A stretch of DNA of 64,000 bases, from positions 186,001-250,000 of the forward strand of contig NIVC01000077.1 in NCBI GenBank assembly GCA_002269645.1, written 5' to 3'. The notes under the pieces were generated by a model, which ran no database searches, was not told the DNA's origin, and saw only the letters and a list, made by a program, of their open reading frames with translations. The stretch is from Macrostomum lignano. Its lineage: Eukaryota. The position numbers were made by a program, and so were the translations under genes. Shown here one piece after another: positions 1 to 19,259 of this stretch (within the stretch, counting starts at the first letter, position 1; the number at the start of each line of letters is the position of its first letter).

Positions 1-4
1 AAAA

Positions 5-415: not shown

Positions 416-425
416 CAATATAAAA

Positions 426-1385
426 ATGGACTCAGTTAATGACGAAAAACGGCTATATTTTATAGGAGAAATTGTAGACAGTCTAGGTTTAGATGATAAT
501 AAACATAGCAACACAATGTTAAAAAGATTGGATCGTTTAGGTAAAAAACTTGACTACGATATCGATACATTTAAACTTGCTGCAAAATATGCACAAGAAG
601 GAAGACCAATATCCTTTAAGAATCGCGGTAGAAATTATAGGCTGACAGACTCCGATGTAAAATTTTTATTGGAGACTCACACTAAAAAGGACGGTGGGTT
701 GTTACCTATTTTACCAATTCTTTTAGGCCTCGGAGCAGCCGGAGCAGCCGGTTTAGCAGGAAAAAGAATTCATGATAACATAAAACAGTTAGGAGAATTA
801 AAAGCAAAAGAAGGGGGTATATTACCCCTCGCAACTTTGCTCCCAATAATTTTTGCAGGAATTGGAGCAGCTGGAGGAGTCGCTGGAGGAGCGGCTGGAA
901 TTGCAAAAGCAGTAAATGACAAAAAAGCCGCGGATGAAAAAGCCAAAAGAGAGGCCGAATTTCAAAGACAGCAAATAACACAGGACGCACAATTCAAACA
1001 AAAACTTATAGATACAATTAATAGTAGCTCAGCAACAGCAGAACAAAAAAGAAATGCAGAAGCTAAATTAGCAGCTGGAAAAGGTTTAATTTTAAAAGGA
1101 ACAACCCAAGGAAGTGGAGTTGTCGCAGATAAACTACAGGAATTTGGTCAAACTTTAGAAAAAACGGGTGAGAAAGCTAAAGGATTTTTTGACAATATTG
1201 GATCCAATTTTAGACCGGCTGTTCAGAAAATTTTTAATAAATTAGGAAAAGATTTTAACATCATTGAAAAACACGACGGAAGCGGATTATATCTCGAAAT
1301 GCGACCAAAAGCAGGTTCAGGAATTTTCTTAAATTCAAACGTTATGGGCAATGGATTACTGTTACCAAAAGCAGATCTCGAATAG
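426..1385 (+). CDS. Polinton virion protein with two adenovirus pX(mu)-like GG-(I/L)LP hydrophobic segments (319 aa)
   Basis: GGLLPILPILLGLGAAGAAG and GGILPLATLLPIIFAGIGAAGG resemble the adenovirus pX C-terminal GGILPLLIPLIAAAIGA motif; multiple GxG motifs in the C-terminal half. Confidence 0.75.
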   Translation: MDSVNDEKRLYFIGEIVDSLGLDDNKHSNTMLKRLDRLGKKLDYDIDTFKLAAKYAQEGRPISFKNRGRNYRLTDSDVKFLLETHTKKDGGLLPILPILLGLGAAGAAGLAGKRIHDNIKQLGELKAKEGGILPLATLLPIIFAGIGAAGGVAGGAAGIAKAVNDKKAADEKAKREAEFQRQQITQDAQFKQKLIDTINSSSATAEQKRNAEAKLAAGKGLILKGTTQGSGVVADKLQEFGQTLEKTGEKAKGFFDNIGSNFRPAVQKIFNKLGKDFNIIEKHDGSGLYLEMRPKAGSGIFLNSNVMGNGLLLPKADLE

Positions 1386-1469
1386 GCACCTGGGGGGTGG
1401 GTCAAGACACCAAAAACGCAAAATTAAAAAACCAATAATTCAAATATTATATAAATTTGATTCTATAAA

Positions 1470-4400
1470 ATGGAAGCAATTTTAGCTCAAATCGACAATC
1501 CTGAAATTAGAGCACAATTAATAGCTCAATTGGAATTAGAAAGAGCTAATATAGAAGCTAGAGTTAGGGCAGAAAATGAGATACGTTTAGAAAGACAATT
1601 AAATGATATTGATAACCCCCAACCACAAGGACAAAATGGAGCTAAAGTAATAGATATAGATATAGATATAAATACAAATTATAAAGAATATTTTAAACAA
1701 ATGAAAGATAAATTAAAGACCATATTAAACAATTATACTATAAGGCCAAATAACAAACGACAGCCAATTAAGTATAAAATAGAAGTTGAAACAGAATTTA
1801 AAAAACCAAATATTCTTAGTGCAAATTCAGAAATTGAAGTAATAAATAACTTTTCACAAGAATCATATAAAACACTACTATCAATGGGAAATTACAATAA
1901 TCAATTTAATCAAATAGAAGCTGAGTTTGATGAATGGATAGATAAGATGACAGATAACGGTTCTGGCTTTATATTTGTATCCTGTAATTCAGCAACAGTA
2001 AAGATTGTTCCTATTGAAATTCTTAAAGGACGATCACACATGAATCCCAGATTTAAATCACATATGATTATAAATCCAGACAATAGAGATAATAAATGTT
2101 TATTATGGTGTTTATTAATTCATAAATATCACAATCAAGTAGAATCACACACTAATAAAATATATAATTATAGACAATATGAGGATGAAATAATAATGAA
2201 AAACATATCATACCCAGTAGCAATAGATGATATATATAAGATTGAAAAAATGAATGGTTTAAATATTAATGTGTTTACAATTGAAGAACCAGAAGATCTA
2301 GAAGAAATTTCAACCGATCCAGATTGGTATAAGAAAAGGTGTTATCTTGTTAAGCCAGCAACTGATATAACAGCACCAGATCAAATCGACCTTTTGTACA
2401 TACAGCGTGAAAATGAAACACATTATATATACATAAAGGACATTAGTTCATTTTTACAAGAAAATAGAAATAGATATCCACTATGTAGAAATTGTTTCAC
2501 ATTTAAAAAGGATGAAACAGCTCTTAAAAATCATCAACGATTTTGTTTAGATCATAAATTTACAAATGTTGTAATGCCAGCTTATGAAGATGCAACCCTA
2601 AAGTTCCAACAACATTATATGGCAATTAAAAAACCAATAGTAATATATGCTGATTTTGAAGCAACAAATGTTCCCTTAAAAGAATCACAGACAGTATCTG
2701 ATGGTGAATGCACAAAAAAATTGGCACAACAGTTTCCGAATAGTTATTGTATATATGTACACTCCGTAGCTGATCATATATTTAAATCAAGGATGATTAC
2801 TTACCACGGTAAGGATGCAGCAAAACACATGGCAGAATCATTAGTAAATGTATTTGAATATATTCAAAATCAATATGATAAATTATCAAAAAATATTATT
2901 ATGACAGATAAGGATAGAGACAATTATAAAAATGCAACAAATTGTTATATGTGCAAAAGATATTTAAGTGGGAAAAATAAGATACGAGAACATTGTCATC
3001 TAACGGGAATTTATCGAGGGGCAGCATGTAGATCATGTAACGCAAAAGAAGGAAAAGGATGTAAGGAAATACCAGTATTTTTTCATAATGGTTCCGGCTA
3101 TGATTTTCATTTCTTAGTTCGAGAATTGCTTCATTTAGGTAGGGACGAATATGAAATAAATATATTACCTAAAACATCAGAAAATTACATATCAATAACA
3201 TATGGTAAGAAATACTCCCATCTAGTTTTTCTAGATTCCTTGAGATTCTTATCAACATCTTTAGCAAATGTTGTTTCATCATTAGTTCCAAAACCGTGGG
3301 ATTTAGAAATAGTAAAGAAAAACTTTCCAATACTATTGAATCGTTTCAAAAAGGAAAAACTATCCGAGGAAGAACTAATGCTATTAACTCGTAAGGGCTG
3401 CTACCCATATGAATATGTAACATCTGAAGACGTATTTTTTCATACCGAATTACCACCCATAGAAAAGTTTTATTCAACATTATCACAATCAAATATAAGT
3501 GAATCGGATTATGAACACGCTCAAAAAGTATGGAAATGTTTTAATTGTAAAACATTTAAAGATTATCATAATCTATATCTTAAAGCAGATGTTCTCCTAT
3601 TAGCTGATGCATTTGAAAACTTTAGGAATCATACATATGAGAACTTTAAAATTGATCCCGCTTATTGTTTCAGTGCACCCGGATTAACATGGGCATGTGG
3701 TTTGAAATACACAGATGTTGAGATTGATTTATTAACTGATCATGATATGTTGTTAATGATTGAGAGAGGAATTCGCGGTGGATTCTCGGGGGTATTAGGA
3801 GATAGATATACTAAAGTAAATAATAAATATCTACCAAATTATAATAAAAAAGAAAAATCATCATATGTATTATATCTAGATGCAAACAATTTATACGGTG
3901 GTTGTATGAAACAAAAATTACCAATAGCTGATTTCCAATGGGAAGACGACCCCGATTATTACAAAAATATTCCCGAAGGAAGGGGCTGTATCGTAGAAGT
4001 GGATTTGCAATATACTCGGGAAGCAAAAGCAAAAACATATAAATATCCTTTAGCTCCAGAGCATTGTTCAGTTAATGAAGATGATTTATCACAAACACAA
4101 AAAGATTATCTTAAAGCAGATAATGCAAAACACCTAGCAACAAAAAAATTAATATTAAATTTACATGATAAGAAAAACTATGTAGTGCATTATAAGCTTC
4201 TACAATTTTATGAAAAGCAGGGATTAAAAGTGTCTAAAGTACATCGAACAATATCGTTTATTGAGGAAGATTGGTTAGCTAAATATATTGACTTTAATTC
4301 AAATCAGAGACAGATGTCAAAAACAAATTTTGAGAAAGATTATTGGAAATTAATGAATAATGCTTTTTATGGAAAAACGGTTGAAAATATTAGAGATAGA

Positions 4401-5444
4401 ACCCAATTCCATTTAGAAAAGGATATTGATAAAGCAAAGAAATATTTCTCAAAACCTAACTTTAAAGATTTTATAAAATTTGATGATAACTTTATGGGAA
4501 TACATATGAGAAATAAAACAACAAAATTTCTTAAACCAATATTTATTGGAATGGTTGTTCTAGATTTTGCAAAGCTAGTAATGTATGAATACTATTATGA
4601 TGTTATAAATAAAACATGGCCAGATAACTATCCAATATATGCAGACACCGACAGTTTGGTATTTAAGGTTGAAACAGATGATCGGACGGAGTCCGCGACC
4701 CTGCGGGGCGATCGGGCAAAGCCCGCGAACCAAAGGTTCGATGTCTATAAAGATATGGAAAAAATTAAGGATACATTGGATACATCCGACTATCCGGATA
4801 ACCATCCCTTAAAATCGAATCAAAATAAGAAAGTTGTACTTAAAATGAAAGATGAATTAAATAGCAAAATCATATCCGAGTTTATAGCAATAAGATCAAA
4901 ATGCTATGCATTTAAAGTTTTAGGACAGGAGGGAGAGGTAAAAAAAATAAAAGGGGTATCAAGGGCGGCAGTTAAAAAGATAACATTTGATGATTATAAA
5001 AATGTACTTTTAGATTACCTTAATACAATTGAAAATTATCACACTCCACAATATCGATTAAATTCAGATAAGCATCGGATGTTTGTCATCGAGACAGATA
5101 AAAAAACATTAAGTCCATTTGATGATAAAAGATATTTAGATGATAAAATTAAAACATATCCATATGGTTTAAAAGATGAGATAAAAAATATGATAAAAGA
5201 TAAAAAACAAAAAGAAGATATAATAAGCAAATATAATGAATACAAAGAGGCAATAAATAATTATTATTACGATTGTGATTGTGAATCCGAATGTGAATGT
5301 GAATATAATACATTTCTAGAATATGAAAAAGATATAGATAATTATTATGCAACTTTTCCAAAAGAACTTAAAAAATTAAACAAGGAAAAAGTCTTGGATA
5401 ACTGGAAGAGATTAACAGAAAAACTAATAATGGTAAAAAACTAA
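1470..5444 (+). CDS. polB: Protein-primed family B DNA polymerase (pPolB) with internal EndoVII/HNH-like Zn domain
   Basis: Exo motifs YADFE and HNGSGYDFHF; polymerase motifs YLDANNLYG, KLMNNAFYGK, YADTDS; CYMC..EHCHLTG.YRGAACRSCN insert; C2H2 finger CRNC..HQRFC. Confidence 0.98.
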   Translation: MEAILAQIDNPEIRAQLIAQLELERANIEARVRAENEIRLERQLNDIDNPQPQGQNGAKVIDIDIDINTNYKEYFKQMKDKLKTILNNYTIRPNNKRQPIKYKIEVETEFKKPNILSANSEIEVINNFSQESYKTLLSMGNYNNQFNQIEAEFDEWIDKMTDNGSGFIFVSCNSATVKIVPIEILKGRSHMNPRFKSHMIINPDNRDNKCLLWCLLIHKYHNQVESHTNKIYNYRQYEDEIIMKNISYPVAIDDIYKIEKMNGLNINVFTIEEPEDLEEISTDPDWYKKRCYLVKPATDITAPDQIDLLYIQRENETHYIYIKDISSFLQENRNRYPLCRNCFTFKKDETALKNHQRFCLDHKFTNVVMPAYEDATLKFQQHYMAIKKPIVIYADFEATNVPLKESQTVSDGECTKKLAQQFPNSYCIYVHSVADHIFKSRMITYHGKDAAKHMAESLVNVFEYIQNQYDKLSKNIIMTDKDRDNYKNATNCYMCKRYLSGKNKIREHCHLTGIYRGAACRSCNAKEGKGCKEIPVFFHNGSGYDFHFLVRELLHLGRDEYEINILPKTSENYISITYGKKYSHLVFLDSLRFLSTSLANVVSSLVPKPWDLEIVKKNFPILLNRFKKEKLSEEELMLLTRKGCYPYEYVTSEDVFFHTELPPIEKFYSTLSQSNISESDYEHAQKVWKCFNCKTFKDYHNLYLKADVLLLADAFENFRNHTYENFKIDPAYCFSAPGLTWACGLKYTDVEIDLLTDHDMLLMIERGIRGGFSGVLGDRYTKVNNKYLPNYNKKEKSSYVLYLDANNLYGGCMKQKLPIADFQWEDDPDYYKNIPEGRGCIVEVDLQYTREAKAKTYKYPLAPEHCSVNEDDLSQTQKDYLKADNAKHLATKKLILNLHDKKNYVVHYKLLQFYEKQGLKVSKVHRTISFIEEDWLAKYIDFNSNQRQMSKTNFEKDYWKLMNNAFYGKTVENIRDRTQFHLEKDIDKAKKYFSKPNFKDFIKFDDNFMGIHMRNKTTKFLKPIFIGMVVLDFAKLVMYEYYYDVINKTWPDNYPIYADTDSLVFKVETDDRTESATLRGDRAKPANQRFDVYKDMEKIKDTLDTSDYPDNHPLKSNQNKKVVLKMKDELNSKIISEFIAIRSKCYAFKVLGQEGEVKKIKGVSRAAVKKITFDDYKNVLLDYLNTIENYHTPQYRLNSDKHRMFVIETDKKTLSPFDDKRYLDDKIKTYPYGLKDEIKNMIKDKKQKEDIISKYNEYKEAINNYYYDCDCESECECEYNTFLEYEKDIDNYYATFPKELKKLNKEKVLDNWKRLTEKLIMVKN
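4681..4740. repeat. Two tandem 30-nt double-hairpin modules inserted in frame in pPolB
   Basis: AT+CGGAC-GGA-GTCCG+CGACCC-TGC-GGGGCG+AT+CGGGC-AAA-GCCCG+CGAACC-AAA-GGTTCG, followed by AT; adds 20 aa just after YADTDS. Confidence 0.93.
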
Positions 5445-5798
5445 AGCATGTAATTCTTCGAGCATATCATTAACTGCAATTTCATATAATATTGAAGGCC
5501 AATTTTCCTCGCAGTCGTCAGGATCGGTCGAAGACCGCGACCCTTCGGGGCGGTAACTTAAACATTCTTTTATTTTTTTCCTAAGTACTTTTATTCGTCT
5601 AACCAATCTATCTATTTCAATTTCAATTACTGTTTCAGCATAAGCAAGCGCAGCTTTTATAAAACACATTCTTTTATCCATCTCATATCGGATGGGAAAC
5701 ATTTCGTCCCCCCACTCACTATAAGACATTGAATTTATTTTTTTATTAATATCTTTAATTTCACGCTTTTTAGTGATAAGGATTTTTATTGTCTCCAT
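5424..5798 (-). CDS. Polinton hypothetical protein (likely start METIKI at 5798; contains one 30-nt double-hairpin module at 5523-5552)
   Basis: ORF track 5424..5822; AAAATG context at 5798. Confidence 0.6.
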   Translation of the reverse strand: METIKILITKKREIKDINKKINSMSYSEWGDEMFPIRYEMDKRMCFIKAALAYAETVIEIEIDRLVRRIKVLRKKIKECLSYRPEGSRSSTDPDDCEENWPSILYEIAVNDMLEELHALVFYHY

Positions 5799-5814
5799 TT
5801 TCTTATAAAAAAAA

Positions 5815-6147
5815 TTAGTCATCTTCGCCAGCCTCCCAAACGGAAGCCAATTTTACAGTCCTGTCACTCTTTTTATTATTTGTTTGTTTTAGTTTAAATT
5901 GCAATCCACCCTCGGTGCTGTATTTTATAATGAACGCTTTAGGTTTATTAATAACTAAAACTGGAAAATTTTTAACATCATTCCCACTTAGACATAGTAT
6001 TGTTTGCCCATCTAATTGTAAAAATATCGATTGAAGTCCAATAAATTTAACCTGTCTCAAACATATAATATTATATTCTTTATTCTCCAACATATTGGGT
6101 GTGAGATAATTAATCACATTAGAATCGGTTTTGAACCAGCTCTCCAT
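5815..6147 (-). CDS. Polinton hypothetical protein (110 aa)
   Basis: ORF with TAAAAATG start, tightly packed between neighbouring genes. Confidence 0.65.
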   Translation of the reverse strand: MESWFKTDSNVINYLTPNMLENKEYNIICLRQVKFIGLQSIFLQLDGQTILCLSGNDVKNFPVLVINKPKAFIIKYSTEGGLQFKLKQTNNKKSDRTVKLASVWEAGEDD

Positions 6148-6173
6148 TTTTAATCTAAAAAAATAACAAAAAA

Positions 6174-6686
6174 ATGAAAGACATTTATGAATGTAATAAA
6201 TGTAACGTGACTATGCATAGAGCTCAAACAGTAAACGGAGATATATATCATATGTGTTATTCATGTTCTAAAATATATCAATTTGAAAAAACAAAAAAGA
6301 TTGAAAACTCATATTACTATTTTAAAAACACAATTTTAAGAAATCTTACAAGAGACATATCTGATCCAATTTTAATTCCCGGAAATAATGTTTATTTATA
6401 TAACAACTTTTTCCATTTAAATAAAGGAAAGGGATTAAGTTCGAAAGACGCTGAAAGGATTTTAATTTTAGTTGGATATTATTTTAATTTTCTTATTCGA
6501 GAGAATACAAAGTTCATAAGGATAGGTAACATACCTAACGAAATGTTACTGAAAAAGTCGTTGGAATTTTTATGTATTGATAAAAAATTTAAACCTAGGA
6601 TCACAAGAGAATTACCACTTTGGGAAGAATATATAACATATGCATTAGAAAAATTGTACTTTGTACACATGACTTGTCATGATTAA
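6174..6686 (+). CDS. Polinton hypothetical protein with N-terminal C4 zinc ribbon (170 aa)
   Basis: CNKC-x17-CYSC; AAAAAATG start. Confidence 0.65.
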   Translation: MKDIYECNKCNVTMHRAQTVNGDIYHMCYSCSKIYQFEKTKKIENSYYYFKNTILRNLTRDISDPILIPGNNVYLYNNFFHLNKGKGLSSKDAERILILVGYYFNFLIRENTKFIRIGNIPNEMLLKKSLEFLCIDKKFKPRITRELPLWEEYITYALEKLYFVHMTCHD

Positions 6687-7369
6687 ACAACATTAAGTTC
6701 TACCGCACTACCTGATCGGGGGCTTTGTACCCCAGTACCAATAGTTTCGGGTTCGTAAATACCTAATGTTTCTATCGGCGGAGCTTTGGGTTTGTCGAGT
6801 CTCAACTCTTTTAATTCTATATCGGTAAAAGTTTCAACATCTAAAATTCTATTTCGATCTTTTAAATATTTTTCATATAATTCAACCGCGGTTGATAACT
6901 CGTGAATTGTTATCTCTCCGTCATCCAATATTTTTTGCACATATAAATATAACTGATTTTTATATTGCTTGGCAACATCTCTTAATGATTTATATTTTTC
7001 CTTTCGTTTTTTAAGATATAATTTAATTGCTAAAAGTATTGATAAGTTTCTGATTAATTCAAAACCTGATATTGAGCCAATTGAAATACCTAAAAATAAT
7101 TGAGATAAATTAAGAGTTGGAATAGATTGTAAAATACCTAAAATGATTACACATAACATCGATAAGCTTCCAAAACCAATATTGAAAAAATCCATATTTC
7201 TGATATGGTTTGAAATCCTTCTTACTTTTTTACTATATAAATCATAATCATAGTTAATACGATCAACATTACTTAACATGTGGCCTTTACGTTGGTCGTG
7301 CATAGCACGCGAACCTTCGGTTCGGTCAAAATGGTCACGTTCCCTTTTATCTGCTTCAGACACCGACAT
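6683..7369 (-). CDS. Polinton two-TM membrane protein (228 aa) with one in-frame double-hairpin module (7295-7324)
   Basis: Two adjacent hydrophobic helices followed by a K-rich helix and ILDDGEITIHEL, a layout recalled from conserved Maverick membrane ORFs. Confidence 0.7.
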   Translation of the reverse strand: MSVSEADKRERDHFDRTEGSRAMHDQRKGHMLSNVDRINYDYDLYSKKVRRISNHIRNMDFFNIGFGSLSMLCVIILGILQSIPTLNLSQLFLGISIGSISGFELIRNLSILLAIKLYLKKRKEKYKSLRDVAKQYKNQLYLYVQKILDDGEITIHELSTAVELYEKYLKDRNRILDVETFTDIELKELRLDKPKAPPIETLGIYEPETIGTGVQSPRSGSAVELNVV

Positions 7370-7685
7370 TCTCGTCTATTTTTAATAGCACCAAAATGAA
7401 TTCCCCGCGCTCTTTGGGGATTTGTCCTGAGCTCAATAGGTATTGTATTGGACTTATTCTTTCTTTTTTCTCCCATTTAAATCCAATTTTCCAAAACTCT
7501 TGAAGTATAATATGATTTTTTAATAATTTAATTAATTCTTGAAGTTTCTTATTATCCTGAACATTCACATTGCTAAATAAATATTTGGTATGAGATTTAA
7601 AAGTTTTTATAATCGGTTCTTGTTTAGGAATAGGAATAATAACATTATTATTCTGCCGCATCGATGGAGTTCTACTAAAAGCCAT
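7356..7685 (-). CDS. Polinton hypothetical protein (109 aa)
   Basis: ORF with TATAAAATG start. Confidence 0.6.
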   Translation of the reverse strand: MAFSRTPSMRQNNNVIIPIPKQEPIIKTFKSHTKYLFSNVNVQDNKKLQELIKLLKNHIILQEFWKIGFKWEKKERISPIQYLLSSGQIPKERGEFILVLLKIDENVGV

Positions 7686-7756
7686 TTTATATAGAAATAT
7701 TTAAGTTATCGAACCAAAGGTTCGCGACTTAGGCTTTAGCCTTAGGCGATCGCCCC

Positions 7757-9627
7757 TTAGGGTCGCAGCATTAGCTGATCTGTGTAGGTGGTTTTTCTAA
7801 ATAAGCGGTAGAAGGAAAAACATAGCCGTAGAAAAACGGCAGCGCCACGAATAAAATGTGCAGCATCCGATCCTCCGGTTCGAGCACCAAAACCCATAAG
7901 AGTTCCAGATTTATCTAAAGTTCCCCAATTCCCACTATCATAAGCAAAAACATTTTGCCCAATTAGAGTATAAGAATCGGCTGAAACATTGTATGAATTT
8001 AATCGATACCAAACCCTTTGATTAAGAATATTTATTTCAAACAGATGCCAATCACCATTATCAATATTTGCATAGTCTACCGTTTGATCCGCGTCAGTAT
8101 TAACATCCGCGCGGCTTGATCCATCTGATTTTTTAGAACTCCAAAGTAGGCCAAATTTATCATGCCACTCACTCGCAAAAACTATCAATCCAGCGTCTGT
8201 TGCTAAACCTGCCCCGCTTTCGGTTGTTGGTCGTTCGTGACAATATGCATAAAACCAAACGGCATCTGCACCACCTCCTGTAGCATTAGCAACTCTGAAA
8301 AAGAAAGACGCTGATATATTTTGAAAATGTGTGAAATTAAATTGTAATGCCCCACTGACTCCAACAGTTTCACGAGTAATTCTAGCACCATTTTGATAAT
8401 CGATATAAGAAGCGTCGCCAATTAAAGAACCAACTGGATATATATCTCCGGCGGTTGTTGGATTTTGATATCCAGTCCAATTGCAAATTACTGTCTCGAA
8501 TAATGCAGCATCAATCGCGGGAATATTATCCAATTTATTTTTATCACCTGCAGACATTCTACCGTTTGATGTTGGGGTTGCTACCTGATCTACGTACGCT
8601 CGCGGGGTTGCAGAAAGTATTTGATTCGGCCAATTAAGATCTTGAATTTCAACTCGGTGTTCAAATAATTGAATTAGACGAACCTCGATAGGTTGTGTAG
8701 CGGTGCCACCAGTTGGGAATAAAACACTATAATATTTCCAAAAATTAACCGTTAAATTAGTTAACGCAAATGAAGTTGCTTGAATTGGCGATCCCGACGT
8801 TCGTAATACCGTCCATGCATCGGTAGCAACATTTTTTGCGCGAACCGACCATCCCGATGGGATATCAATAGTTGCGCTGCCTGTAATTCTTAATTCATTT
8901 ATTCTTCGATTATAACCTAAAAATTCAAATTGAATTTCAATATTGGTTGTGGTTCCGGTATTTGGTGACCATTGTGTCGCAAGGCTTCCATCTCCAACTC
9001 GAAAAGCATCGTTGGTATTTTCAGATGCTGTAAGAACAACATCAGGATTTGAAGTATTTGATGTAAGCGGTGTGGCAAAAATATCGGCGTCTGTTACATT
9101 AGCTCGAGCGTTGACTTGCCCTAAATTGACCGAGTCTGTGTCCTCTGTTCCAAATAATAAATTTGTTAATTTAAAATTATTCATATTAATATTGCCAGTA
9201 CGACTACCAACCTGATTATCGACATAGTTCTTATCAACTACCGAGTTATTCGTTGTAATTGCAACATTTATAATTCGATTGTTGTTTCGGTTCCGGTTGC
9301 GGTGGTTTGAACATAACGCGAATCAGAATCATTTCGAGAATAAGAATCAGTTATATCTCTTTTTAAATTTAACCCAGTGTCAACCTCTGTTTTTGTATAT
9401 GAATCACTAATATCTCTTTTAAGATTTAATGAAGTGTCGATTTCAGTTTTGGTATAGGAATCTGCAACGTTTCTTTTTAAATTTAGTTTAGTATCAATTT
9501 CAGTTTTTTTATAACCTTCATCCTCATTAATATATCGGTTATCTCCGAATGTAACACTTATTCCACCAGATGTACCACCACCAGTACTTGTTGTTCCGTT
9601 CCATGAGGGTGTTCCAGAAAATATCAT
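7757..9627 (-). CDS. Fibre/receptor-binding protein (repeat shaft + discoidin-like + legume-lectin head), split by a frameshift near 9270-9310
   Basis: ORF 9268..9627 has YTKTEID-type repeats. The reading NNRIINV..VDKNYVDNQ..NMNNFKLTNL continues in the frame of ORF 7757..9184. Lectin motifs GGGADAVWF and MGFGARTGG..AHFI. Confidence 0.75.
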
Positions 9628-9637
9628 TTTTTACTGC

Positions 9638-10165
9638 CTATTTTATAGAGTCTAAAATCGCCCCGTAGGGTCGCGGACTTCGTCCGATCGTTCCGATGGA
9701 ACGCGTGCTTTGCACGATCGAACCGAAGGTTCGCATACTTTGTATGATATCTTTAAAGTCTTCGGGTCTTTCCTTAGAGTTATTAATTTTATATAAAAAA
9801 TACAACGCCGCTTGCCCGCAATAACTTTTATCAAAGGTTTGAAATTGTTCGTGATGATCTCCACATAAACGATTTTTAGTATGATTAAATTTGTCTTTTA
9901 TTTCCTGTAACGGAGGAAGCGCGTATGAATCAAAAAAATAAACAAGTTTGGGTTTGGAATAAACTGCCGACCAATGAACACCGTTTTCTTTTGTTGTTTC
10001 TATATTGACAATGTAAGATCCATATTGTGGTAAGTCTTTGATCTCATCTCGCATAACACATCTAAATGGTTTTATTTTTAGTTGCCGCGCCCAATTTGTT
10101 AATTCAATATTGCTTGTTGTGTCAGTTCCATATCTTTGTTTGAACAACTGCCAATTCAAAGTCAT
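9638..10165 (-). CDS. Adenain-like cysteine maturation protease
   Basis: Catalytic motifs GVHW, YFFDSY, QTFDKSYCG; the C-terminal 30 aa before LDSIK derive from three double-hairpin modules. Confidence 0.95.
   Translation of the reverse strand: MTLNWQLFKQRYGTDTTSNIELTNWARQLKIKPFRCVMRDEIKDLPQYGSYIVNIETTKENGVHWSAVYSKPKLVYFFDSYALPPLQEIKDKFNHTKNRLCGDHHEQFQTFDKSYCGQAALYFLYKINNSKERPEDFKDIIQSMRTFGSIVQSTRSIGTIGRSPRPYGAILDSIK
9657..9748. repeat. Three tandem 30-nt double-hairpin modules in the protease 3' end
   Basis: AT CGCCCC-GTA-GGGTCG CGGAC-TTC-GTCCG AT CGTTCC-GAT-GGAACG CGTGC-TTT-GCACG AT CGAACC-GAA-GGTTCG CATAC-TTT-GTATG AT. Confidence 0.93.
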
Positions 10166-10166
10166 T

Positions 10167-10340
10167 TTATGTTCCTGAAAAACTCTTGGTTTTGATTAGT
10201 TTCGTAGGTTTGGATTTTAACAGTTCCTTTCGGATTTTTTCTGCTTGAAGTTGTTTCAATTTTGTTAGTTCGATTTCATAATTATCCTTTGCATTTTGAA
10301 CTTTATCTGATTGTTTTTTTAAACTATTATTGTTACCCAT
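10167..10340 (-). CDS. Small basic protein with N-myristoylation consensus (57 aa; below ORF-track cutoff)
   Basis: MGNNNSLKKQ...KSFSGT*; TAAAAATG start; fills the gap between penton and protease exactly. Confidence 0.7.
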   Translation of the reverse strand: MGNNNSLKKQSDKVQNAKDNYEIELTKLKQLQAEKIRKELLKSKPTKLIKTKSFSGT

Positions 10341-10350
10341 TTTTACAATG

Positions 10351-11136
10351 TTAAACCTGTTTTATCCGTAAAATTATTGTTATTGACTGTCCACCAAAAC
10401 TTATTAATCTATCGCTTTCATCTACAATCCTAATATAAATTGATTGAACACTATATTGATTTAAAGGATAATATATTGGGGTTTGGGGTGCAACAATCAT
10501 TTTCTCTCCAATTGGAACAGCAAGAAATGGGATGGAATAAATAATTCCACGTTGAACCAAAACTCCGTTATCATCTGTTATATAACCGCCGTTTGATATG
10601 TCGGTTGTTATATTAATTGTATTAACTCCACCCTCAATATTTCCAACGGTATCGCCAGTGCTTGATGTGGTAACGATTCGGGAATTAAATCCGAGTATGG
10701 TTCTGAGTGAATTTGCAATTGTGAAATCAACCTGATATCCAGATTCTAGTGATAGCGTGAATCTGCCAGATGGTAAATCAACCCCTATAACAATCGCGCC
10801 TGCTACCCAATCGCCATTAGCTGTTAATTCTCCTTCTATATAAGCATTCAAATCGGTATAGGAATATGCTCCTGGGTTAACGCTAAATGTTGTCCAATTG
10901 GCTCCGGAATCTTTAGAATATCTAAATTGATTATTTGTTGCATTAATTAATTGAGGCATGTTAAAAACTGAAAATAGTATCAAACCTATTTGATAACTTA
11001 GGCTTTGATCGAGTTGTAACGGATCGCGCAATCGAATCAGTTGCTCACTTCTTGTCATTATAAACTGTAAGGTTGTACTAAATTTTGAATTAGTTCGATC
11101 TACCAATTGTTTTATAGTATCCAAATTTGTAGCCAT
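10351..11136 (-). CDS. Minor capsid protein (penton, single jelly-roll)
   Basis: N(Q)F.Y, PG.YS..DLN, P..PIYYPL and IRIVDE..RLI.F.G...TI.LRI motifs typical of Polinton pentons; position next to the ATPase. Confidence 0.88.
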   Translation of the reverse strand: MATNLDTIKQLVDRTNSKFSTTLQFIMTRSEQLIRLRDPLQLDQSLSYQIGLILFSVFNMPQLINATNNQFRYSKDSGANWTTFSVNPGAYSYTDLNAYIEGELTANGDWVAGAIVIGVDLPSGRFTLSLESGYQVDFTIANSLRTILGFNSRIVTTSSTGDTVGNIEGGVNTINITTDISNGGYITDDNGVLVQRGIIYSIPFLAVPIGEKMIVAPQTPIYYPLNQYSVQSIYIRIVDESDRLISFGGQSITIILRIKQV

Positions 11137-11154
11137 TTTTTATAGTGGATAAAA

Positions 11155-11919
11155 CTAAGTCTCTTCTTCCTCATTATCTTCTTTTATCAGATTTGTTAAG
11201 ATTCGATGTTTCCTTTCTAACCTGGGGTTGATATATATGTGTTTGTATTGGCTATCATCCCAAATTTTTTTACACATACTTTTAAATGGTTTGGTATCCA
11301 ACCCAGGATTAAATCTAGCGTGTATATTTTGTAAATCATATTTATCTAAATCAAACATTACACAACAGCTAGCATTCTTTTTTATAATTGATTCTAATTC
11401 TCTAAAAGATTGAGTAAGATAAAATGCTCCAATTCCATCTCCTCTACCACTAACAAAAATTTCCTTTTGCAATTCTTGATCGCCGTCATTAATACAATCA
11501 TCAAAAATAATTAGTGTTTTATCATGTTTTGGAATTTGATCATAGGATAATCGGGTTGATACTCTAACAGTTGGGGATCTCTCGGTGGTGTTTTCTGATA
11601 TTTGTGCCGTTGTTTTACATAAATCCTCAATGTCATCGAGTGTAAATCTTGGTTCATCATCGTCCTCATATTGCTCATATGCTCTTAACATTCTAAACAT
11701 AATATCTTTTTTTAATTTGTTTTTTAATCCATGTTTAAGAAATTCATAATATTTTATTTTAGGTTTGTTAGTATATATTAATAAATTATTATAGTCTAAC
11801 ATTCCATCTGTTGTTAATAAATCGTAAACAAAGTGTGTTTTTCCTTTACCTGATCCTCCGATTACTAAACAAAGAAAAGGATCATTTGGAAATATCTTAT
11901 TGTGTTTTGCTTTTACCAT
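11155..11919 (-). CDS. FtsK/A32-like genome packaging ATPase
   Basis: Walker A GGSGKGKT, Walker B LIIFDD, YLTQS motif. Confidence 0.95.
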   Translation of the reverse strand: MVKAKHNKIFPNDPFLCLVIGGSGKGKTHFVYDLLTTDGMLDYNNLLIYTNKPKIKYYEFLKHGLKNKLKKDIMFRMLRAYEQYEDDDEPRFTLDDIEDLCKTTAQISENTTERSPTVRVSTRLSYDQIPKHDKTLIIFDDCINDGDQELQKEIFVSGRGDGIGAFYLTQSFRELESIIKKNASCCVMFDLDKYDLQNIHARFNPGLDTKPFKSMCKKIWDDSQYKHIYINPRLERKHRILTNLIKEDNEEEET

Positions 11920-11967
11920 TTTTAAGGAAATAATTTATATAGGCGCGACGTGCTTTGCACTGCGACA

Positions 11968-13440
11968 CTAAAGTGGCGCGTCCTGAACTATGGTTCCGTC
12001 AGCCCGTGCAATTGCCATGTATTCCTCGAGAAACAAAACGTGGGCGTCAACCGCCTGATTTCCGGTTTTATTAATCTCTAACATATAATTAAGTCCAACA
12101 TTGGATACATTTTCTTTCTGTGCCGTTAGGTCAAAAACAGACACTGGATGAATGTTTAGAAACTCGGTGGGTGTGTACTGAGGAACCGCATACACTTCAT
12201 TTTTGACATAATCCTGATAATATTTTATAAAATCATTAACATCATTATTACCTATATTAAGATTAAGGGGTTCTTTAACCGGATAATACTGATCATCAAC
12301 CTGTAGGCGAATATTCTGAAGATTAAATGCGTTTATTGCTGAAGCTGCGGTATCGGTTGCCGTGGCTGCTTGGTCTGCTACTGCATCAGATTGAATCCAA
12401 TACAAATCACCGTTTGCACGTTTGCTAGTTCTATTTGTTATTTTAAACCAAACAAATATATATCTCACCCGACGTTTTGATGTTAATATTTGCCATTGGA
12501 ATGAATCCTGATTGTTATTAATGGTGCGCATAAAATGTCGACGATTCAAATAAAATATTTCTTGATCAACCATTAACTGATTATCAATATGTTTTAATAG
12601 CGGAGCCGTTACCTCAATGGTTGGTACGACTAATTGAATTGAAACTATTCTAAGTGCTATATCGGTTGAGGTTGAAGTTCCAAAAAGTATCCTACCCTGA
12701 TATCCACCAGATATTTGCAACTGTACCCCAAATTTTAATCCTTTCCATACCCGATTTGGTGAGAAGAACCCAAACAGTGGAAAGATTGAAAAGTCTTGCT
12801 CGTAAGCTGTTGCGTTGGTTAAAACCGCGACTGGGAATTTATTCTGACGATCTAGGAATCCCGTGTTTATGTTTTTAGGGTTGGTTAGAGTTGTTACAAC
12901 TGGAACTATGTTTGTATTAAGGTAATTAATAAGAGCTGCGGTATCTGCACCGGCTGCTGGTGCTACGTTAGGAAAATTTATTGCTCCACCATCTCCCTTA
13001 TCGGGCATCCATCCAACATTATCACCAACCTGTTTTGATAAATAAGTATAATTTAAATGTTTAAGAACTCCATTAATCTCTGCGGGGTTTGTTGATGTTT
13101 CAACCTCAGCTCCGTTAATTCTTAGTTGAGCTTGGGAAAAACATTTATAAAACCAATCGTTCTCGATAACAATACCAGCGCGGTCTGCTATATCACCAGC
13201 TCCAAGAGCCGTTCCGTCATTTCGTGTATATAACCATCTAACACGGAAAAACGCATTTTTCATATCCAGTATTGTATTAGTTGCACCAACATCAAAAGTT
13301 ACCGTTCCAGTAGTAAAATTGTTTGAATTATCGCTTGTTGGTAGGGTATAATTTAAATCTCTTGCCCTGACCTCATTAATATACTGGCGGTGCTTTTTGA
13401 AATAATACTTATCACTCCATCTGGTTTTTGTTTCAGCCAT
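11968..13440 (-). CDS. Major capsid protein (double jelly-roll)
   Basis: 490-aa beta-rich protein with FSQAQLRING.EVE, NL.NIRLQVD..YYP and YP(V)SVFDLTAQKE-type motifs; adjacent to ATPase and penton. Confidence 0.88.
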   Translation of the reverse strand: MAETKTRWSDKYYFKKHRQYINEVRARDLNYTLPTSDNSNNFTTGTVTFDVGATNTILDMKNAFFRVRWLYTRNDGTALGAGDIADRAGIVIENDWFYKCFSQAQLRINGAEVETSTNPAEINGVLKHLNYTYLSKQVGDNVGWMPDKGDGGAINFPNVAPAAGADTAALINYLNTNIVPVVTTLTNPKNINTGFLDRQNKFPVAVLTNATAYEQDFSIFPLFGFFSPNRVWKGLKFGVQLQISGGYQGRILFGTSTSTDIALRIVSIQLVVPTIEVTAPLLKHIDNQLMVDQEIFYLNRRHFMRTINNNQDSFQWQILTSKRRVRYIFVWFKITNRTSKRANGDLYWIQSDAVADQAATATDTAASAINAFNLQNIRLQVDDQYYPVKEPLNLNIGNNDVNDFIKYYQDYVKNEVYAVPQYTPTEFLNIHPVSVFDLTAQKENVSNVGLNYMLEINKTGNQAVDAHVLFLEEYMAIARADGTIVQDAPL

Positions 13441-13474
13441 TTTTTATAGTTAAAAAAGTTTTTTATGTTAAAAA

Positions 13475-14146
13475 ATGAGTCAATTTATGGATGTTGATGG
13501 AGAGTTAGAGATTTATAAAGATAAGCAAAGATATTCTGATTTTGTTAGAAATTTACAAAAAAGAAAGTTAGGAATACAATTAGCTGGCGAAAGATTTGCT
13601 GCTCCTTTTGTTAATCCGATTACGGAGAAAGTTAGTGAACTAGAAAAAACAGATAAAGACCTTCTAGAAAAAATTGCTAAGAATACCGAGCCAAAAGAGG
13701 ATGAAATTTTGGATGAGCCGCCTGCTTATGATGTTGATCAAGCATTATTGAGAGTTGCAGAAATTAGGGCTGCAGAAAGGGGTGGAGTTGAACAATATCC
13801 GAGAGCTGCACCACAAAGTATTGCTGTGCGAGATTTAGATAATAATAATTATCGAATTGGTGGAGTTGTTAAAAATCAGAATGAGCTATATAGAGAATTG
13901 GGTGGAGCATATAATATTATTATGAACCCGAGGGTAAAATTTAATCCTGATTTATATACTAGGGATGAATTAGTAAGTGCTAAAATTTTTTATGATGAGT
14001 TAGGAGAAAGAGCTGCTAAAAATACCAGTTTGTATAAAAGGATTGTTGATTCTATAAATAACAAACCGGTTGTTGGAGAAGGATTTAAAACTCCACGAAA
14101 ACTTGTTTTAGCTGCTGCGAAAGCTGCTGGACATACAGGAGTTTAA
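13475..14146 (+). CDS. Polinton PZ-like core protein (223 aa)
   Basis: C-terminal GEG-F...LVLAAAKAAGHTG resembling the PZ AGN/AGH motif. Confidence 0.55.
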   Translation: MSQFMDVDGELEIYKDKQRYSDFVRNLQKRKLGIQLAGERFAAPFVNPITEKVSELEKTDKDLLEKIAKNTEPKEDEILDEPPAYDVDQALLRVAEIRAAERGGVEQYPRAAPQSIAVRDLDNNNYRIGGVVKNQNELYRELGGAYNIIMNPRVKFNPDLYTRDELVSAKIFYDELGERAAKNTSLYKRIVDSINNKPVVGEGFKTPRKLVLAAAKAAGHTGV

Positions 14147-14173
14147 TTAATTGTTAAATTTATTTTTTATAAA

Positions 14174-14689
14174 ATGGAAAATACGATAAAAAATTGTCTT
14201 TGTAAACCTATTTATGATAAGGCTGGTTCTGACAGAATACTAAATAAGATATTTCAAAATGAATTAATAATTGCAAACCGTATTAAAACAATTCAAATGA
14301 GACTTGGATATCTTTATGAATTATTAGCTATTGAACATTTTGGTTTTGAAAAAATAAACAAAATTGATTTAATTCATACCGAAAGAAAAATTGCGTTAGA
14401 ATTAAAATCTTCTGATAATACAGATAATTTATCAAGTAGATTTAGAAATATTCAAAAGTTATTAGAATTTAAATATGTTAATCCCGAATTTGATTTATAT
14501 TATATTTGCATTAATAATACTACTAAAAACCCCGTACAAAAGGTATTTGATAATGGAGTTACCTTTTTAACTGGGGAATTTGCTTTAAATTTTTTATATG
14601 GTGATCAATATTTGGAAATTATTAAAATGATAGAAACGTGTTTTTCAAAGATTAAAAATGAGCAACCGAACGAAGTTCGCGAACCGTAG
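14174..14689 (+). CDS. Free-standing PD-(D/E)xK restriction-like endonuclease (171 aa)
   Basis: GYLYE helix, IDL, ALELKSSDNTDN pattern as in type II REase/PD-(D/E)xK folds; no methyltransferase in the visible element. Confidence 0.7.
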   Translation: MENTIKNCLCKPIYDKAGSDRILNKIFQNELIIANRIKTIQMRLGYLYELLAIEHFGFEKINKIDLIHTERKIALELKSSDNTDNLSSRFRNIQKLLEFKYVNPEFDLYYICINNTTKNPVQKVFDNGVTFLTGEFALNFLYGDQYLEIIKMIETCFSKIKNEQPNEVREP

Positions 14690-16264
14690 GTTCGACCAAT
14701 TAGTATTTGAAGGAGGATTTTTAGACTTACAAAAAGGATTAACAAGCTTACCGAGTATTTTTACTACTGGAAGGTATACAAATGAATTACACCTGCCGTC
14801 GTATAATTTCACAGGTTACCCCGTGGCCTGAGTGAGGAAGTCAATGTCCTTGCTAGTCACTATTTGTGGCGACATCTTCAAATTGCGTGAAACCCGTCAT
14901 ACAGCTTCAAGTACCACTTCAATTGAGAAATCTTTTGAAGGAACAGAGGTAACTCCTCTTCCCAACGGTAACAAGCTTGAAGACATGGTGGCAATGCGCA
15001 GCCAAGCTCCTAAGTCGGTCGATATGGAGAAGGTTCAGAGAGCAGACGGAGATGGGCGGTAATTTAACCGCTTAAGGTGTGCTCCAGCCTCTTTCGAAAG
15101 ATTGAGGGTAAACTACCCGGCACTAAGTTAGATTTGAGATTAAATCCTGATGACACTCCAAAAGCTGATTCAATTCCCATTAACGGTATTGATTGGTTAG
15201 CATATTATCATGACTTAGCATACAGAGATGCTGATAAGAACTCACCCGAGGAAGCATTAAGATTAAAACATGAAGCCGATAGAAAAATGATTCAAGGATT
15301 AGATAACTTACAAGGATTATCGGTAAGCCAAAGATTAACTCGGTGGATGGTTAAAAAGATTCTGCAATCTAAAGTTAAATTTGGTTTGGGAATTAATTAC
15401 AATCAACATGGAAATAATTGTGTTGAGTGTTTATTATTAAGTGGCAGTGGGTTAAGTTCTGATGAGGCAAAGATTCTTCATAAAGAATATCGAAAACCTA
15501 AATTTTATAGAAAAATCATGAACTTCAAAAAGAATGAAATTTGGTATGCTGATTTAATGTCGATGCCGAGCGACAGAGGATATAAATATATTTTAACCAT
15601 ATTAGATGGTTTTACTAGATACGCGTGGGCTGTTCCTTTAAAATCCAAAAAAGGAGAGGAGGTTGCTGCTGCTTTTAGAAGTCTTGGAGAAAAAAGCGAA
15701 CGGTTGTGTGTTGATGAGGGAAAAGAATTTTACAATCCTCATATGTATAAATTATATCATTTTGAAAAAGGAAAAGAAAGGATGAAGGACGCGAATGGGG
15801 AGTATATTAATAAAATTTATTCTATTTATGGAGAAAGTAAAAACGCATTAATAGAAAGATTTAATCGAACTTTGGGGAAGAAATTGTGGTTTCAGTTTAG
15901 TCTTAATGGAAACCAAAAGTGGGTAAAAATATTACCAGACGTCGTGAAAGATTATAATAATTCATATCATTCAGCAATAAAGATGACTCCTCAACAAGCT
16001 TATAACAATCCTGAAAACGTTAAAGTTACTTTTGGAAAATTTGAAAAAAATAAAAAGAAATCTTTTAAGGTTGGTGATTCTGTTTATATCTATAAATGGA
16101 AAAATAAGTTTGAAAAGGGAAGAAAAGGATATTGGAAAATTAGTGAGAAATTTACTATCAGTAAAGTTTTAAATACAAATCCTACAACCTATATAATTGC
16201 TGATAAGGATGGTGAAGAAATATTAGGTTCGTTTTATGAGAATCAACTAATATCAGCGAACTAA
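14658..16264 (+). CDS. PLA2-integrase fusion (exon 1 14658-14816, exon 2 15116-16264; 435 aa spliced)
   Basis: Joining gives ELHLPSYNFTG|PGTKL (PLA2 Ca loop), then HDLAY and HEAD (PLA2 catalytic), then rve DDE motifs WYADL, LCVDEGKEF, IERFNRTL. TAAAAATG start at 14658. Confidence 0.9.
14817..15115 (+). ncRNA. Group I self-splicing intron (IC1-like fold), 299 nt, no internal ORF
   Basis: P1 with U.G (exon CAGGU/GCCUG 14826-30); P3 CAUCUUC/GGAGAUG; P AAAUUGCGUGAAA; Q AAUGCGCAGCC; P5abc with A-rich bulge and GAAA L5b; 11-nt receptor CCUAAG/UAUGG; P7 GAGCA/UGCUC; P8; P9 with GAAA loop; P9.0 AG/CU. Confidence 0.95.
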
Positions 16265-16274
16265 GTTCGAACAA

Positions 16275-16442
16275 TTACTTGAGACAACATGGTAGTAAAT
16301 TTTTTATAACAAACAAAAACAATATTATTACTATTATTGTTACTAATATAATTATTGAAATTTGTTCAACAGATATCAAACTTAAATTTTCATTAAGTTC
16401 ATTAATCGGCACATTTCCGATGTAGGAGTAATTTACCTTCAT
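16275..16442 (-). CDS. Small single-pass membrane protein (55 aa; below ORF-track cutoff)
   Basis: MKVNYSY...ISIIILVTIIVIILFLFVIKNLLPCCLK*; TAAAAAATG start. Confidence 0.55.
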   Translation of the reverse strand: MKVNYSYIGNVPINELNENLSLISVEQISIIILVTIIVIILFLFVIKNLLPCCLK

Positions 16443-16501
16443 TTTTTATATATATTTTTCATAATAAATGTTGTTTCTGTTATAGAATAATAGTTCATTT
16501 T

Positions 16502-16816
16502 TTACATAAAAATTTCAATTTCATTCTCAGAATCACTAGTTTCATATGAGCTATTTGTTGAGTTGGAATCGTCTGAACGAACCTCCCAATCATCCGAATT
16601 TAAATAATCTCCAAGTTGAAATATTAACTCACCCTCTTGTTCTAAATCATACATCTCATCCAACTCTAATGGATAAAGTTTTGGGTCGTGCTTGTCGTCA
16701 TACTTTAAATAAACTTCATCAATTATTCCATTCAAAATATGTTGTTTTATTATCTCTGCATTTTTAGCAACAGTCTCAAAAGTATCACTAACAGAAAAGG
16801 TGTAAACTCGGGTCAT
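16502..16816 (-). CDS. Acidic hypothetical protein (104 aa)
   Basis: ORF with TAAAAATG start adjacent to the terminal repeat. Confidence 0.6.
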   Translation of the reverse strand: MTRVYTFSVSDTFETVAKNAEIIKQHILNGIIDEVYLKYDDKHDPKLYPLELDEMYDLEQEGELIFQLGDYLNSDDWEVRSDDSNSTNSSYETSDSENEIEIFM

Positions 16817-16859
16817 TTTTAGTAACAGAAAAAGACCCTTCGCGCCTGCGGCGCGTGCG

Positions 16860-17211
16860 AGGGGTTATAGAGATTTGGATGTGTTAGAAGTGTTGGGGAG
16901 TGTTGGAAGAATTGGGATGTGTAGTAGTAGGTAAAAAGACGAGTACAGATCAGCCCTTTTTAAATGGCCGTTTATAAGGTTCCAGAGGGGGGACACGAGG
17001 GGGCTAATTCAAAGAGTTGGGGATGGGTTATATTGATTTGTGGTATTAAGGGGTGTTGTGGGTGATTAGGTGTGTTATGGGGTGTTATGGGTGTGTTATG
17101 GGTGTTTAGATGTGTTTTTTTATTTCCCCCCCCCCGTGTCCCCCCTCTAGACCCTTAAAACGGCTGTTAAAAAAGCGTGCTGGGTCTGTACTCGTCTTTT
17201 TACCTACTACT
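16860..17211. repeat. Polinton right terminal region (TIR; inner boundary uncertain) with internal inverted copy of the terminus
   Basis: Non-coding GT-rich short repeats; AGTAGTAGGTAAAAAGACGAGTACAGA at 16923 is the exact reverse complement of 17185-17211. Confidence 0.85.
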
Positions 17212-19022: not shown

Positions 19023-19135
19023 GGGCTATCCTGCATTTTCGTTCGTTAAATTATTTCCGGAATTATTTCGCCCTCTATTCAAGGGTGGTGGGGGGTGGGT
19101 GTTGGAATTAAACGAACGAAAATGCAGGATAGCCC
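19023..19135. mobile_element. 113-bp MITE
   Basis: Perfect 25-bp TIR GGGCTATCCTGCATTTTCGTTCGTT; AAAAAT on both flanks (possible 6-bp TSD). Confidence 0.8.
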
Positions 19136-19259
19136 AAAAATGTATTAAAATTATTTGAATCATCTCAACTTGAATTGCAACTCTAATAGGCTTTACTATA
19201 TTACTATAATTTAGATTTTATATTATTGTATATTAGGTCTAGTATGTTAAGGTTAATTG

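What the first reader, a model, noticed from the sequence alone, without database searches (positions are those of the whole stretch)
14658..16264. Phospholipase A2-integrase polyprotein hidden from the ORF track
Seen: the spliced 435-aa product joins a parvovirus-VP1u-type PLA2 (YxGPG loop, HDxxY, D) to a complete DDE integrase. The linker contains KFGLG and LSGSG, and FEGG-FL lies near the N-terminus. Established: such PLA2s serve endosomal escape, and Polinton integrase is normally a separate gene. Inference: the entry enzyme and integrase are co-packaged and released by adenain. Unspliced RNA stops at 14831, so splicing would gate both entry and integration functions.
Basis: partly seen in the sequence, partly recalled or inferred. 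Interest (0 to 1): 0.8.

Follow-up and report, generated by a model that had tools for sequence, protein, structure and literature searches.

The report
Polinton phospholipase-integrase fusion, intron-interrupted
A virus-like element embedded in this genome joins its membrane-breaking entry enzyme and its DNA-inserting enzyme into one protein, a design shared with many relatives and probably cut apart by the element's own protease, while a self-splicing intron has parasitised the gene in this copy.

Summary
The fusion is real and does not hinge on the splice: one open frame (15068-16264) holds the PLA2 catalytic half and a full DDE integrase. Exon 1 (14658-14816) supplies the calcium loop; 53+382=435 aa. 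It is a family trait: 54 of the best 120 relatives carry both Pfam domains. The 299-nt insert is a group I intron (Rfam 62.9 bits, cut-off 50), not spliceosomal, present in some relatives and absent from near-identical ones, so a mobile parasite rather than a regulatory gate. Its terminal base is non-canonical, so this copy may not splice. Cleavage is inferred: a GxG/GG-hydrophobic motif marks the disordered linker (33 of 57 relatives) and this element's core proteins, and avoids folded domains, but KFGLG and FEGG fail the adenovirus consensus and unfused PLA2s keep the same motif. Polinton PLA2s, their packaging hypothesis and group I introns in protist Polinton-like viruses are published; I found no paper on the fusion, though the ESM Atlas auto-names it. 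Verdict: new variant of a known kind, interest 0.5.

The parts
14658..14816 (+). Exon 1: 53 aa, N-terminal part of the PLA2 up to the first Gly of the calcium loop; FEGGFL at 14706-14723
   Evidence: GG followed within 3 residues by D in 33 of 56 fused relatives with a long N-terminus
14817..15115 (+). Group I intron, 299 nt, no homing-endonuclease frame; holds the stop at 14829-14831; terminal base non-canonical
   Evidence: Rfam RF00028 62.9 bits, gathering 50, E 9.6e-16; P1 with U-G wobble at 14816/14826, P7, P9, P9.0 and 4 of 5 P10 pairs read from the sequence
15116..15382 (+). Catalytic half of the parvovirus-type PLA2 domain (PGT, HDLAY, second Asp, closing helix)
   Evidence: PF08398 weak on this half alone (14.6 bits, below 23.9), above cut-off in intron-less relatives (P0001 33 bits); helical, high pLDDT
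15377..15454 (+). Linker with two GxG-hydrophobic motifs (KFGLGI, LSGSGL): predicted protease sites
   Evidence: pLDDT under 50 at residues 91-108; sites at aa 90 and 110; cleavage itself is inference
15452..16264 (+). rve (DDE) integrase with C-terminal beta-barrel, no chromodomain
   Evidence: PF00665 E 3e-7; D146, D200, E247 invariant; Foldseek: foamy virus intasome E 2.5e-14, MELD virus and mavirus integrases
9638..10165 (-). Adenain/Ulp1-like cysteine protease, the candidate processing enzyme
   Evidence: H64 and C116 motifs; Atlas neighbours at 0.95-0.96 carry PF00770 in 12-62% of members; no Pfam or PDB sequence hit
426..1385 (+). pX-like core protein with 8 GG/GxG-hydrophobic motifs: internal comparison for the protease motif
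   Evidence: Adeno_PX E 0.022, below cut-off; 8 sites against 2.29 expected
1..17211 (.). Host element: right part of a Polinton/Maverick (pPolB 1470-5444, penton-like 10351-11136, A32 ATPase 11155-11919, capsid-like 11968-13440); left end outside the window
   Evidence: penton and capsid labels rest on size, position and a weak tblastn hit only

Best explanation
A clade of Polintons encodes PLA2 and integrase as one precursor. Shown: the single frame, intact catalytic motifs of both domains, a disordered linker, the same architecture in about a hundred relatives. Inferred: the precursor is drawn into the particle with the core proteins; the element's cysteine protease cuts at GxG/GG-hydrophobic sites flanking the PLA2; the freed PLA2 breaches the endosome and the freed integrase, whose new N-terminus would match that of stand-alone Polinton integrases, arrives with the genome ready to integrate it. 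The protease would tolerate K/R where adenovirus adenain wants M/I/L. The group I intron is a later, mobile insertion into the conserved calcium-loop codons; it must be removed to make the full protein, but it is a parasite, and in this copy it may be splice-defective.
For: Both domains in one protein: 54 of 120 by precomputed Pfam, 71 of 120 by my profiles, 101 of 268 proteins held; Atlas clusters of 184, 111 and 72 members, mostly Preplasmiviricota where taxa are known. Motif: 35 sites in 33 of 57 linkers against 6.4 shuffled; 2 sites in 15,103 integrase residues against 9.2; 0 in PLA2 cores. In this element it is enriched in three probable core proteins (8 vs 2.29, 3 vs 0.62, 3 vs 0.43) and absent from capsid, protease and integrase core. 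P0269, found after the motif was fixed, is an ATPase-PLA2-integrase chain with 3 sites, two of them at the two domain boundaries. Last glycine motif to the conserved His: median 14 residues in 56 fused proteins, 10 here; Met to His: median 9.5 in 20 hand-picked unfused integrases. Packaging of Polinton lipases for entry is proposed in PMC4642659 (passages).
Against: The motif was defined after looking at these sequences, and the conserved linker site is inherited, so the counts are not independent tests. P4 is K or R in 60 of 76, against the adenain motif given in 10.1101/341131. The same KxLGxG ends 59 of 83 unfused PLA2s, so it may simply close the domain. The second site (LSGSG type) is in only 7 of 90. 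No Polinton virion has been observed (10.64898/2026.06.19.733378). No genomic context for any fused relative: 0 of 57 GTDB loci carry the PLA2. PLA2 fold match is middling (Z 7.5, tied with an unrelated chain; Foldseek E 0.37).
Confidence: 0.55

Rival explanations
1. The fusion works uncut. KxLGxG is the structural end of the PLA2 domain, the two neighbouring genes fused by loss of a stop, and the PLA2 simply tethers the integrase to the particle or to membranes.
For: Motif kept in 59 of 83 unfused PLA2s; strict adenain site in only 12 of 90 linkers; linker as short as 5 residues in some relatives; fused and unfused integrases interleave in the tree outside the main clade.
Against: The motif recurs in unrelated core proteins of the element and at both boundaries of the triple fusion P0269; it is depleted from folded domains.
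Confidence: 0.25
2. The family trait is real, but this copy makes no full protein: the intron cannot complete its second step, or the copy has decayed. (Compatible with the best explanation at family level.)
For: P9.0, P10 and protein homology all put the 3' splice site after 15115, and that base is not the one PMC9223047 calls universally conserved. The fibre-like gene of this copy lies in two frames.
Against: All core pairings are intact; both exons keep their frame and catalytic residues; relatives P0003 and P0036 carry a homologous intron end encoding the same last residue; a natural exception in Coxiella is recalled, not found; an assembly error cannot be excluded.
Confidence: 0.4
3. The intron is a kept regulatory gate that restricts entry and integration functions to conditions where it splices.
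For: The stop lies inside the intron's guide sequence, so unspliced RNA gives a 57-aa peptide; the insertion site is shared by two sub-lineages.
Against: P0007 and intron-less P0009 are 100% identical over 386 aa from the insertion point on; P0011 and P0013 97%; the closest relatives P0001 and P0004 have no intron. Patchy presence at a conserved motif is the pattern of a mobile intron.
Confidence: 0.1
4. Integrase is mostly made on its own from an internal start (ATG 15287 or 15347), the fusion being a minor product.
For: In-frame ATGs exist; 2 of 16 unfused-labelled proteins in the window's clade start just before the conserved His.
Against: The frame is kept open across the boundary in about 100 divergent relatives, down to about 33% identity; seven ATGs lie between 14658 and 15068.
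Confidence: 0.1

Closest known systems
Adintovirus PLA2X and Maverick CAP (PMC8502044, section 3.2 and passages; PMC5803895, passages)
   Same: Parvovirus-VP1-type PLA2 in an animal Polinton, proposed virion protein acting in entry.
   Different: There the PLA2 carries a C-terminal pX-like domain or is its own gene and the integrase is a separate gene; here pX-like sequence is in ORF 426-1385 and the PLA2 is followed by the integrase.
Polinton/Maverick and mavirus rve integrase
   Same: DDE core and C-terminal barrel; best viral structural hits are a MELD virus integrase and mavirus integrase.
   Different: Stand-alone forms begin about 8-16 residues before the conserved His; here about 165 residues of PLA2 and linker precede that point. 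That mavirus packages its integrase and lipase is recalled, not read.
Adenovirus/adomavirus precursors processed by adenain (pVI, pX, LO6; 10.1101/341131 and PMC8537868, passages)
   Same: Glycine motifs flanking a membrane-active virion protein; 11 of 28 unfused PLA2s with a short tail have three or more basic residues in it, like pVIc.
   Different: P4 is mostly K/R, not M/I/L; the released C-terminal part would be a whole enzyme.
Retroviral Gag-Pol (textbook, recalled)
   Same: Integrase made inside a precursor, packaged through another domain and freed by the viral protease.
   Different: Analogy only: no Gag, RT or aspartic protease; the carrier is a phospholipase.
Group I introns of protist Polinton-like viruses (PMC12220804, passages)
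   Same: RF00028 introns of about 300-380 nt inside small genes of integrated dsDNA viruses.
   Different: Reported there only from Paulinella, Desmodesmus and Rhodomonas, in a short gene upstream of the capsid gene; here in a Polinton PLA2-integrase gene in what is probably an animal genome (host inferred, not shown).

Membership tests
Polinton/Maverick (Polintoviricetes) | Protein-primed PolB | tested here: inconclusive
   1324-aa ORF with PolB motifs by eye and tblastn hits (E 5e-12) to a contig that also holds an rve integrase; Pfam found only its Endonuclease VII domain
Polinton/Maverick (Polintoviricetes) | rve integrase with DDE triad | tested here: met
Polinton/Maverick (Polintoviricetes) | A32-type packaging ATPase | tested here: met
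   PF04665 30.1 bits, cut-off 22.8
Polinton/Maverick (Polintoviricetes) | Adenain/Ulp1-like protease | tested here: met
   Atlas neighbours 0.95-0.96 with PF00770, His and Cys motifs; lead-grade, no Pfam or PDB hit
Polinton/Maverick (Polintoviricetes) | Double jelly-roll capsid and penton | tested here: inconclusive
   ORFs of fitting size and place; one weak tblastn hit, E 4e-4; not folded
Polinton/Maverick (Polintoviricetes) | Terminal inverted repeats and target duplication | not testable with these tools
   only the right end (ACTACT at 17211; AGT-type end recalled) is in the window
Parvovirus-type PLA2 (PF08398) | Calcium loop, HDxxY and second Asp | tested here: met
   loop split by the intron (FTG|PG); HDLAY and Asp present; intact relatives pass the Pfam cut-off
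Parvovirus-type PLA2 (PF08398) | sPLA2-like helical fold | tested here: inconclusive
   model of intron-less relative P0134 (50% identical; pLDDT 89): rice PLA2 ranks first in both searches, Z 7.5, rmsd 3.8, 90 aligned; Foldseek E 0.37; profile hits sPLA2s and AAV VP1 at E 0.007-0.05
Parvovirus-type PLA2 (PF08398) | Phospholipase activity | not testable with these tools
   needs an assay
Adintovirus PLA2X | C-terminal pX-like domain | tested here: not met
   integrase follows the PLA2; the only Adeno_PX hit is in ORF 426-1385
Adenain substrate (adenovirus consensus) | (M/I/L)xGxG or (M/I/L)xGG at the cut | tested here: inconclusive
   LSGSG fits, KFGLG and FEGG do not; strict site in 12 of 90 relatives' linkers
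Group I intron (RF00028) | Catalytic core P3-P7, P4-P6 above gathering score | tested here: met
   62.9 bits against 50; P7 fully paired
Group I intron (RF00028) | U-G wobble at the 5' splice site | tested here: met
   U14816-G14826 in P1
Group I intron (RF00028) | Conserved terminal nucleotide at the 3' splice site | tested here: not met
   base 15115 differs from the class rule in PMC9223047; lowers 'active intron', not 'derived from one'
Spliceosomal intron | GT/GC-AG ends that restore the protein | tested here: not met
   0 of 59 in-frame options restore GPG

The most novel reading that the evidence does not exclude
A widespread clade of animal Polintons has converged on retroviral logic: integrase is made as a protease-processed precursor and rides into the particle on its membrane-lytic PLA2, so infection delivers a ready integration complex; and this mRNA is parasitised by a mobile group I intron that self-splices in a host-transcribed animal message despite a non-canonical 3' end.
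Probability: 0.25. Interest if true: 0.8.

Novelty: new variant of a known kind. Interest (0 to 1): 0.5.

Why it matters
Whether Polintons form infectious particles and how they integrate after entry is open. An integrase held in one frame with an entry enzyme is genetic evidence that the integrase is a virion protein, and it gives a small, purely biochemical test (protease plus linker) that would also define the unknown specificity of Polinton proteases. The intron matters separately: nuclear group I introns are described as restricted to rDNA of fungi and protists (PMC9223047), so a splicing one in a Polinton mRNA of an animal would widen that range. For annotation, fused genes are easily called as plain integrases.

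Tried and rejected
Spliceosomal reading: rejected. Rfam over 1-20000 missed the intron; the narrow search found it; scans of 1-7000 and 7000-14750 found no other RNA family, with the same filter caveat. The intron has no copy elsewhere in the window or in the 57 loci and only short, probably chance, matches in phages. Search for short exon-1 peptides found no candidate, uninformative. Fold search of the two-domain model was filled by integrases. Number of fusion origins: not concluded; the tree needs 19 changes but labels are confounded by fragments, and test_one_clade was not run. One search cut the LSGSGL site at a slice edge; one search corrects it. No protease-linker complex was predicted (enzyme-substrate jobs are discouraged as uninformative). 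Literature: 10 searches, 15 papers read as term passages (one section of PMC8502044 in full, its supplement searched, file cut when stored); none describes a PLA2-integrase fusion. Subscription papers, Repbase entries, figure contents and bioRxiv supplements were not seen and could show it.

Full report
Setting. Bases 1 to about 17211 are the right part of a Polinton/Maverick: a 1324-aa polymerase-like ORF, a protease, penton- and capsid-sized ORFs, an A32 ATPase and a pX-like core protein, ending in ACTACT at 17211 (that Mavericks end so is recalled). Beyond it lie a retrotransposon-like pol ORF and satellites, so the host is a eukaryote. That it is an animal is inferred: PMC8502044 (abstract passage) finds such virion genes restricted to animals, and the one relative with a eukaryote name among the 120 listed is from a coral (P0071).

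Observation. The frame from ATG 14658 stops at 14829-14831; a second frame is open from 15068 to 16264. Pieces 14658-14816 and 15116-16261 give 53 + 382 = 435 aa. Relatives without an insert read straight across this point, and exon 1 matches P0001 at 69% over 32 aa. The loop is FTG|PG rather than YxGPG. HDLAY, the second Asp and the DDE triad are present, the triad invariant in 66 sequences. The boundary between PLA2 and integrase lies within exon 2, so the fusion stands whatever the splice does. The ATG-started ORF begins only at 15287, which is why an ORF track shows a plain integrase.

The fusion is a family trait. Of the best 120 of 446 relatives, 54 carry PF08398 and PF00665 together, 71 by my own profiles. 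A search with the PLA2 half alone gave 262 hits; of the best 150, 32 continue into integrase, 8 show only its first motif and 110 do not, many being short or fragmentary. The ESM Atlas holds clusters of 184, 111 and 72 members with both domains, one auto-named 'Phospholipase A2-like/Integrase core domain-containing protein', mostly Preplasmiviricota among the few with taxa. In an integrase tree of 150 rows the window lies in a clade of 71 (support 99) with 55 fused rows; of the 16 others three keep the end of the PLA2, most start inside the integrase and two could be stand-alone. Twenty fused rows lie outside that clade among unfused ones, so more than one fusion or fission is likely but was not tested. 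One 719-aa protein chains ATPase, PLA2 and integrase. None of 57 GTDB loci has the PLA2, so the genomic context of fused relatives is unchecked.

Structure. The exon-2 model (pLDDT 84) shows a helical domain to residue 89, a low-confidence stretch at 91-108 and an integrase matching the foamy virus intasome (E 2.5e-14) and MELD-virus and mavirus integrases. The PLA2 fold was tested on intron-less relative P0134 (50% identical; pLDDT 89): rice PLA2 ranks first in both searches but at middling strength (Z 7.5 against 7.1 for an unrelated chain; Foldseek E 0.37). With Pfam scores above cut-off in intact relatives and weak profile hits to sPLA2s and AAV VP1, the PLA2 assignment is sound though the fold search alone would not prove it.

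The insert. It is a group I intron: RF00028 at 62.9 bits against a cut-off of 50. P1 with the U-G wobble at 14816, P7, P9, P9.0 and 4 of 5 P10 pairs can be read off. None of 59 in-frame GT/GC-AG options restores the loop. P9.0, P10 and homology put the 3' site after 15115, and that base departs from the rule PMC9223047 calls universal: the copy may be splice-defective, a rare variant, or mis-assembled. The fibre-like gene also lies in two frames, so the copy is not pristine. Relatives show the same site occupied or empty: P0003 and P0036 begin with a translation of a homologous intron end; P0007, P0011, P0019, P0125, P0131 and P0232 have other sequence right before PGT, and P0007 is 100% identical over 386 aa to intron-less P0009. 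Such patchiness fits a mobile intron, not a kept switch. In-frame ATGs at 15287 and 15347 also leave a splice-independent route to integrase formally open.

Cleavage. The adenain motif given in 10.1101/341131 is (MIL)xGxG or L(LR)GG. LSGSG fits, KFGLG and FEGG do not. Among 90 fused relatives with HDxxY, 62 have GxG after the last helix, 12 a strict site, 7 a second site; P4 is K or R in 60 of 76. A looser GG/GxG-hydrophobic motif, chosen after seeing the sequences, is enriched in three probable core proteins of this element and absent from capsid, protease and integrase core; it occurs in 33 of 57 linkers (35 sites, 6.4 expected) but only twice in 15,103 integrase residues (9.2 expected). P0269, found later, has it at both domain boundaries. 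A cut at the last site would leave about as many residues before the integrase's conserved His as stand-alone integrases have (10 here; medians 14 and 9.5), though a simple gene fusion predicts that too. Against: 59 of 83 unfused PLA2s end in the same motif. Cleavage is therefore likely, not shown, and by a protease whose preference differs from adenovirus adenain.

Mechanism. Shown: one gene, two intact enzyme domains, a disordered glycine-marked linker, an adenain-like protease in the element. Inferred: packaging of the precursor, release by the protease, endosomal escape by the PLA2 (proposed for Polinton lipases in PMC4642659) and delivery of integrase with the genome. I put this at 0.55, the uncut fusion at 0.25, and, independently, the chance that this copy makes no full protein at 0.4.

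What is known. [quoted passage not shown] Ten searches and term passages of 15 papers showed no description of the fusion or of a group I intron in an animal Polinton; subscription papers, Repbase, figures and preprint supplements were not seen. The architecture is already in automated databases. Verdict: a new variant of a known kind; interest 0.5.

Noticed in passing
window 4726, 7310, 7710, 9719, 14680 (variant near 5542): A 15-bp palindrome CGAACCnnAGGTTCG-type recurs in the element, in or beside ORF ends and starts, one copy in the 5' end of exon 1; possible regulatory signal or tiny mobile repeat.
   Followed up: no
window 7757-9627 (-): The fibre-like gene lies in two frames with a break near 9270-9300: decay or assembly error in this copy.
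   Followed up: partly
window 16923-17211: The right terminus holds an internal inverted repeat: its last 27 bases are mirrored at 16923-16949, which could fold the end into a hairpin.
   Followed up: no
window 14174-14689 (+): Eco47II-like nuclease ORF (E 2.4e-4, below cut-off) overlapping the start of the PLA2-integrase gene; a candidate free-standing nuclease for intron homing, untested.
   Followed up: no
window 1470-5444 (+): The polymerase carries an Endonuclease VII (HNH) domain at residues 487-538, also reported in Sf Maverick PolB (PMC5803895).
   Followed up: no
proteins P0213, P0234, P0267 and others: Many unfused PLA2 relatives end in GxG plus a short basic tail, like adenovirus pVIc (28 of 59 with tails up to 16 aa, 11 basic).
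   Followed up: partly
protein P0269: ATPase-PLA2-integrase triple fusion, 13 member sequences.
   Followed up: partly
L003, L010, L027: Contigs in bacterial MAGs carry Polinton-type integrase with protease, PolB or ATPase matches: probably eukaryotic virus contigs binned with bacteria.
   Followed up: no
window 22407-28334 (-); 41854-49000; 58054-59448: Retrotransposon-like gag and pol ORFs, a 31-bp satellite of over 200 copies and an inverted array of short repeats in the host flank.
   Followed up: no
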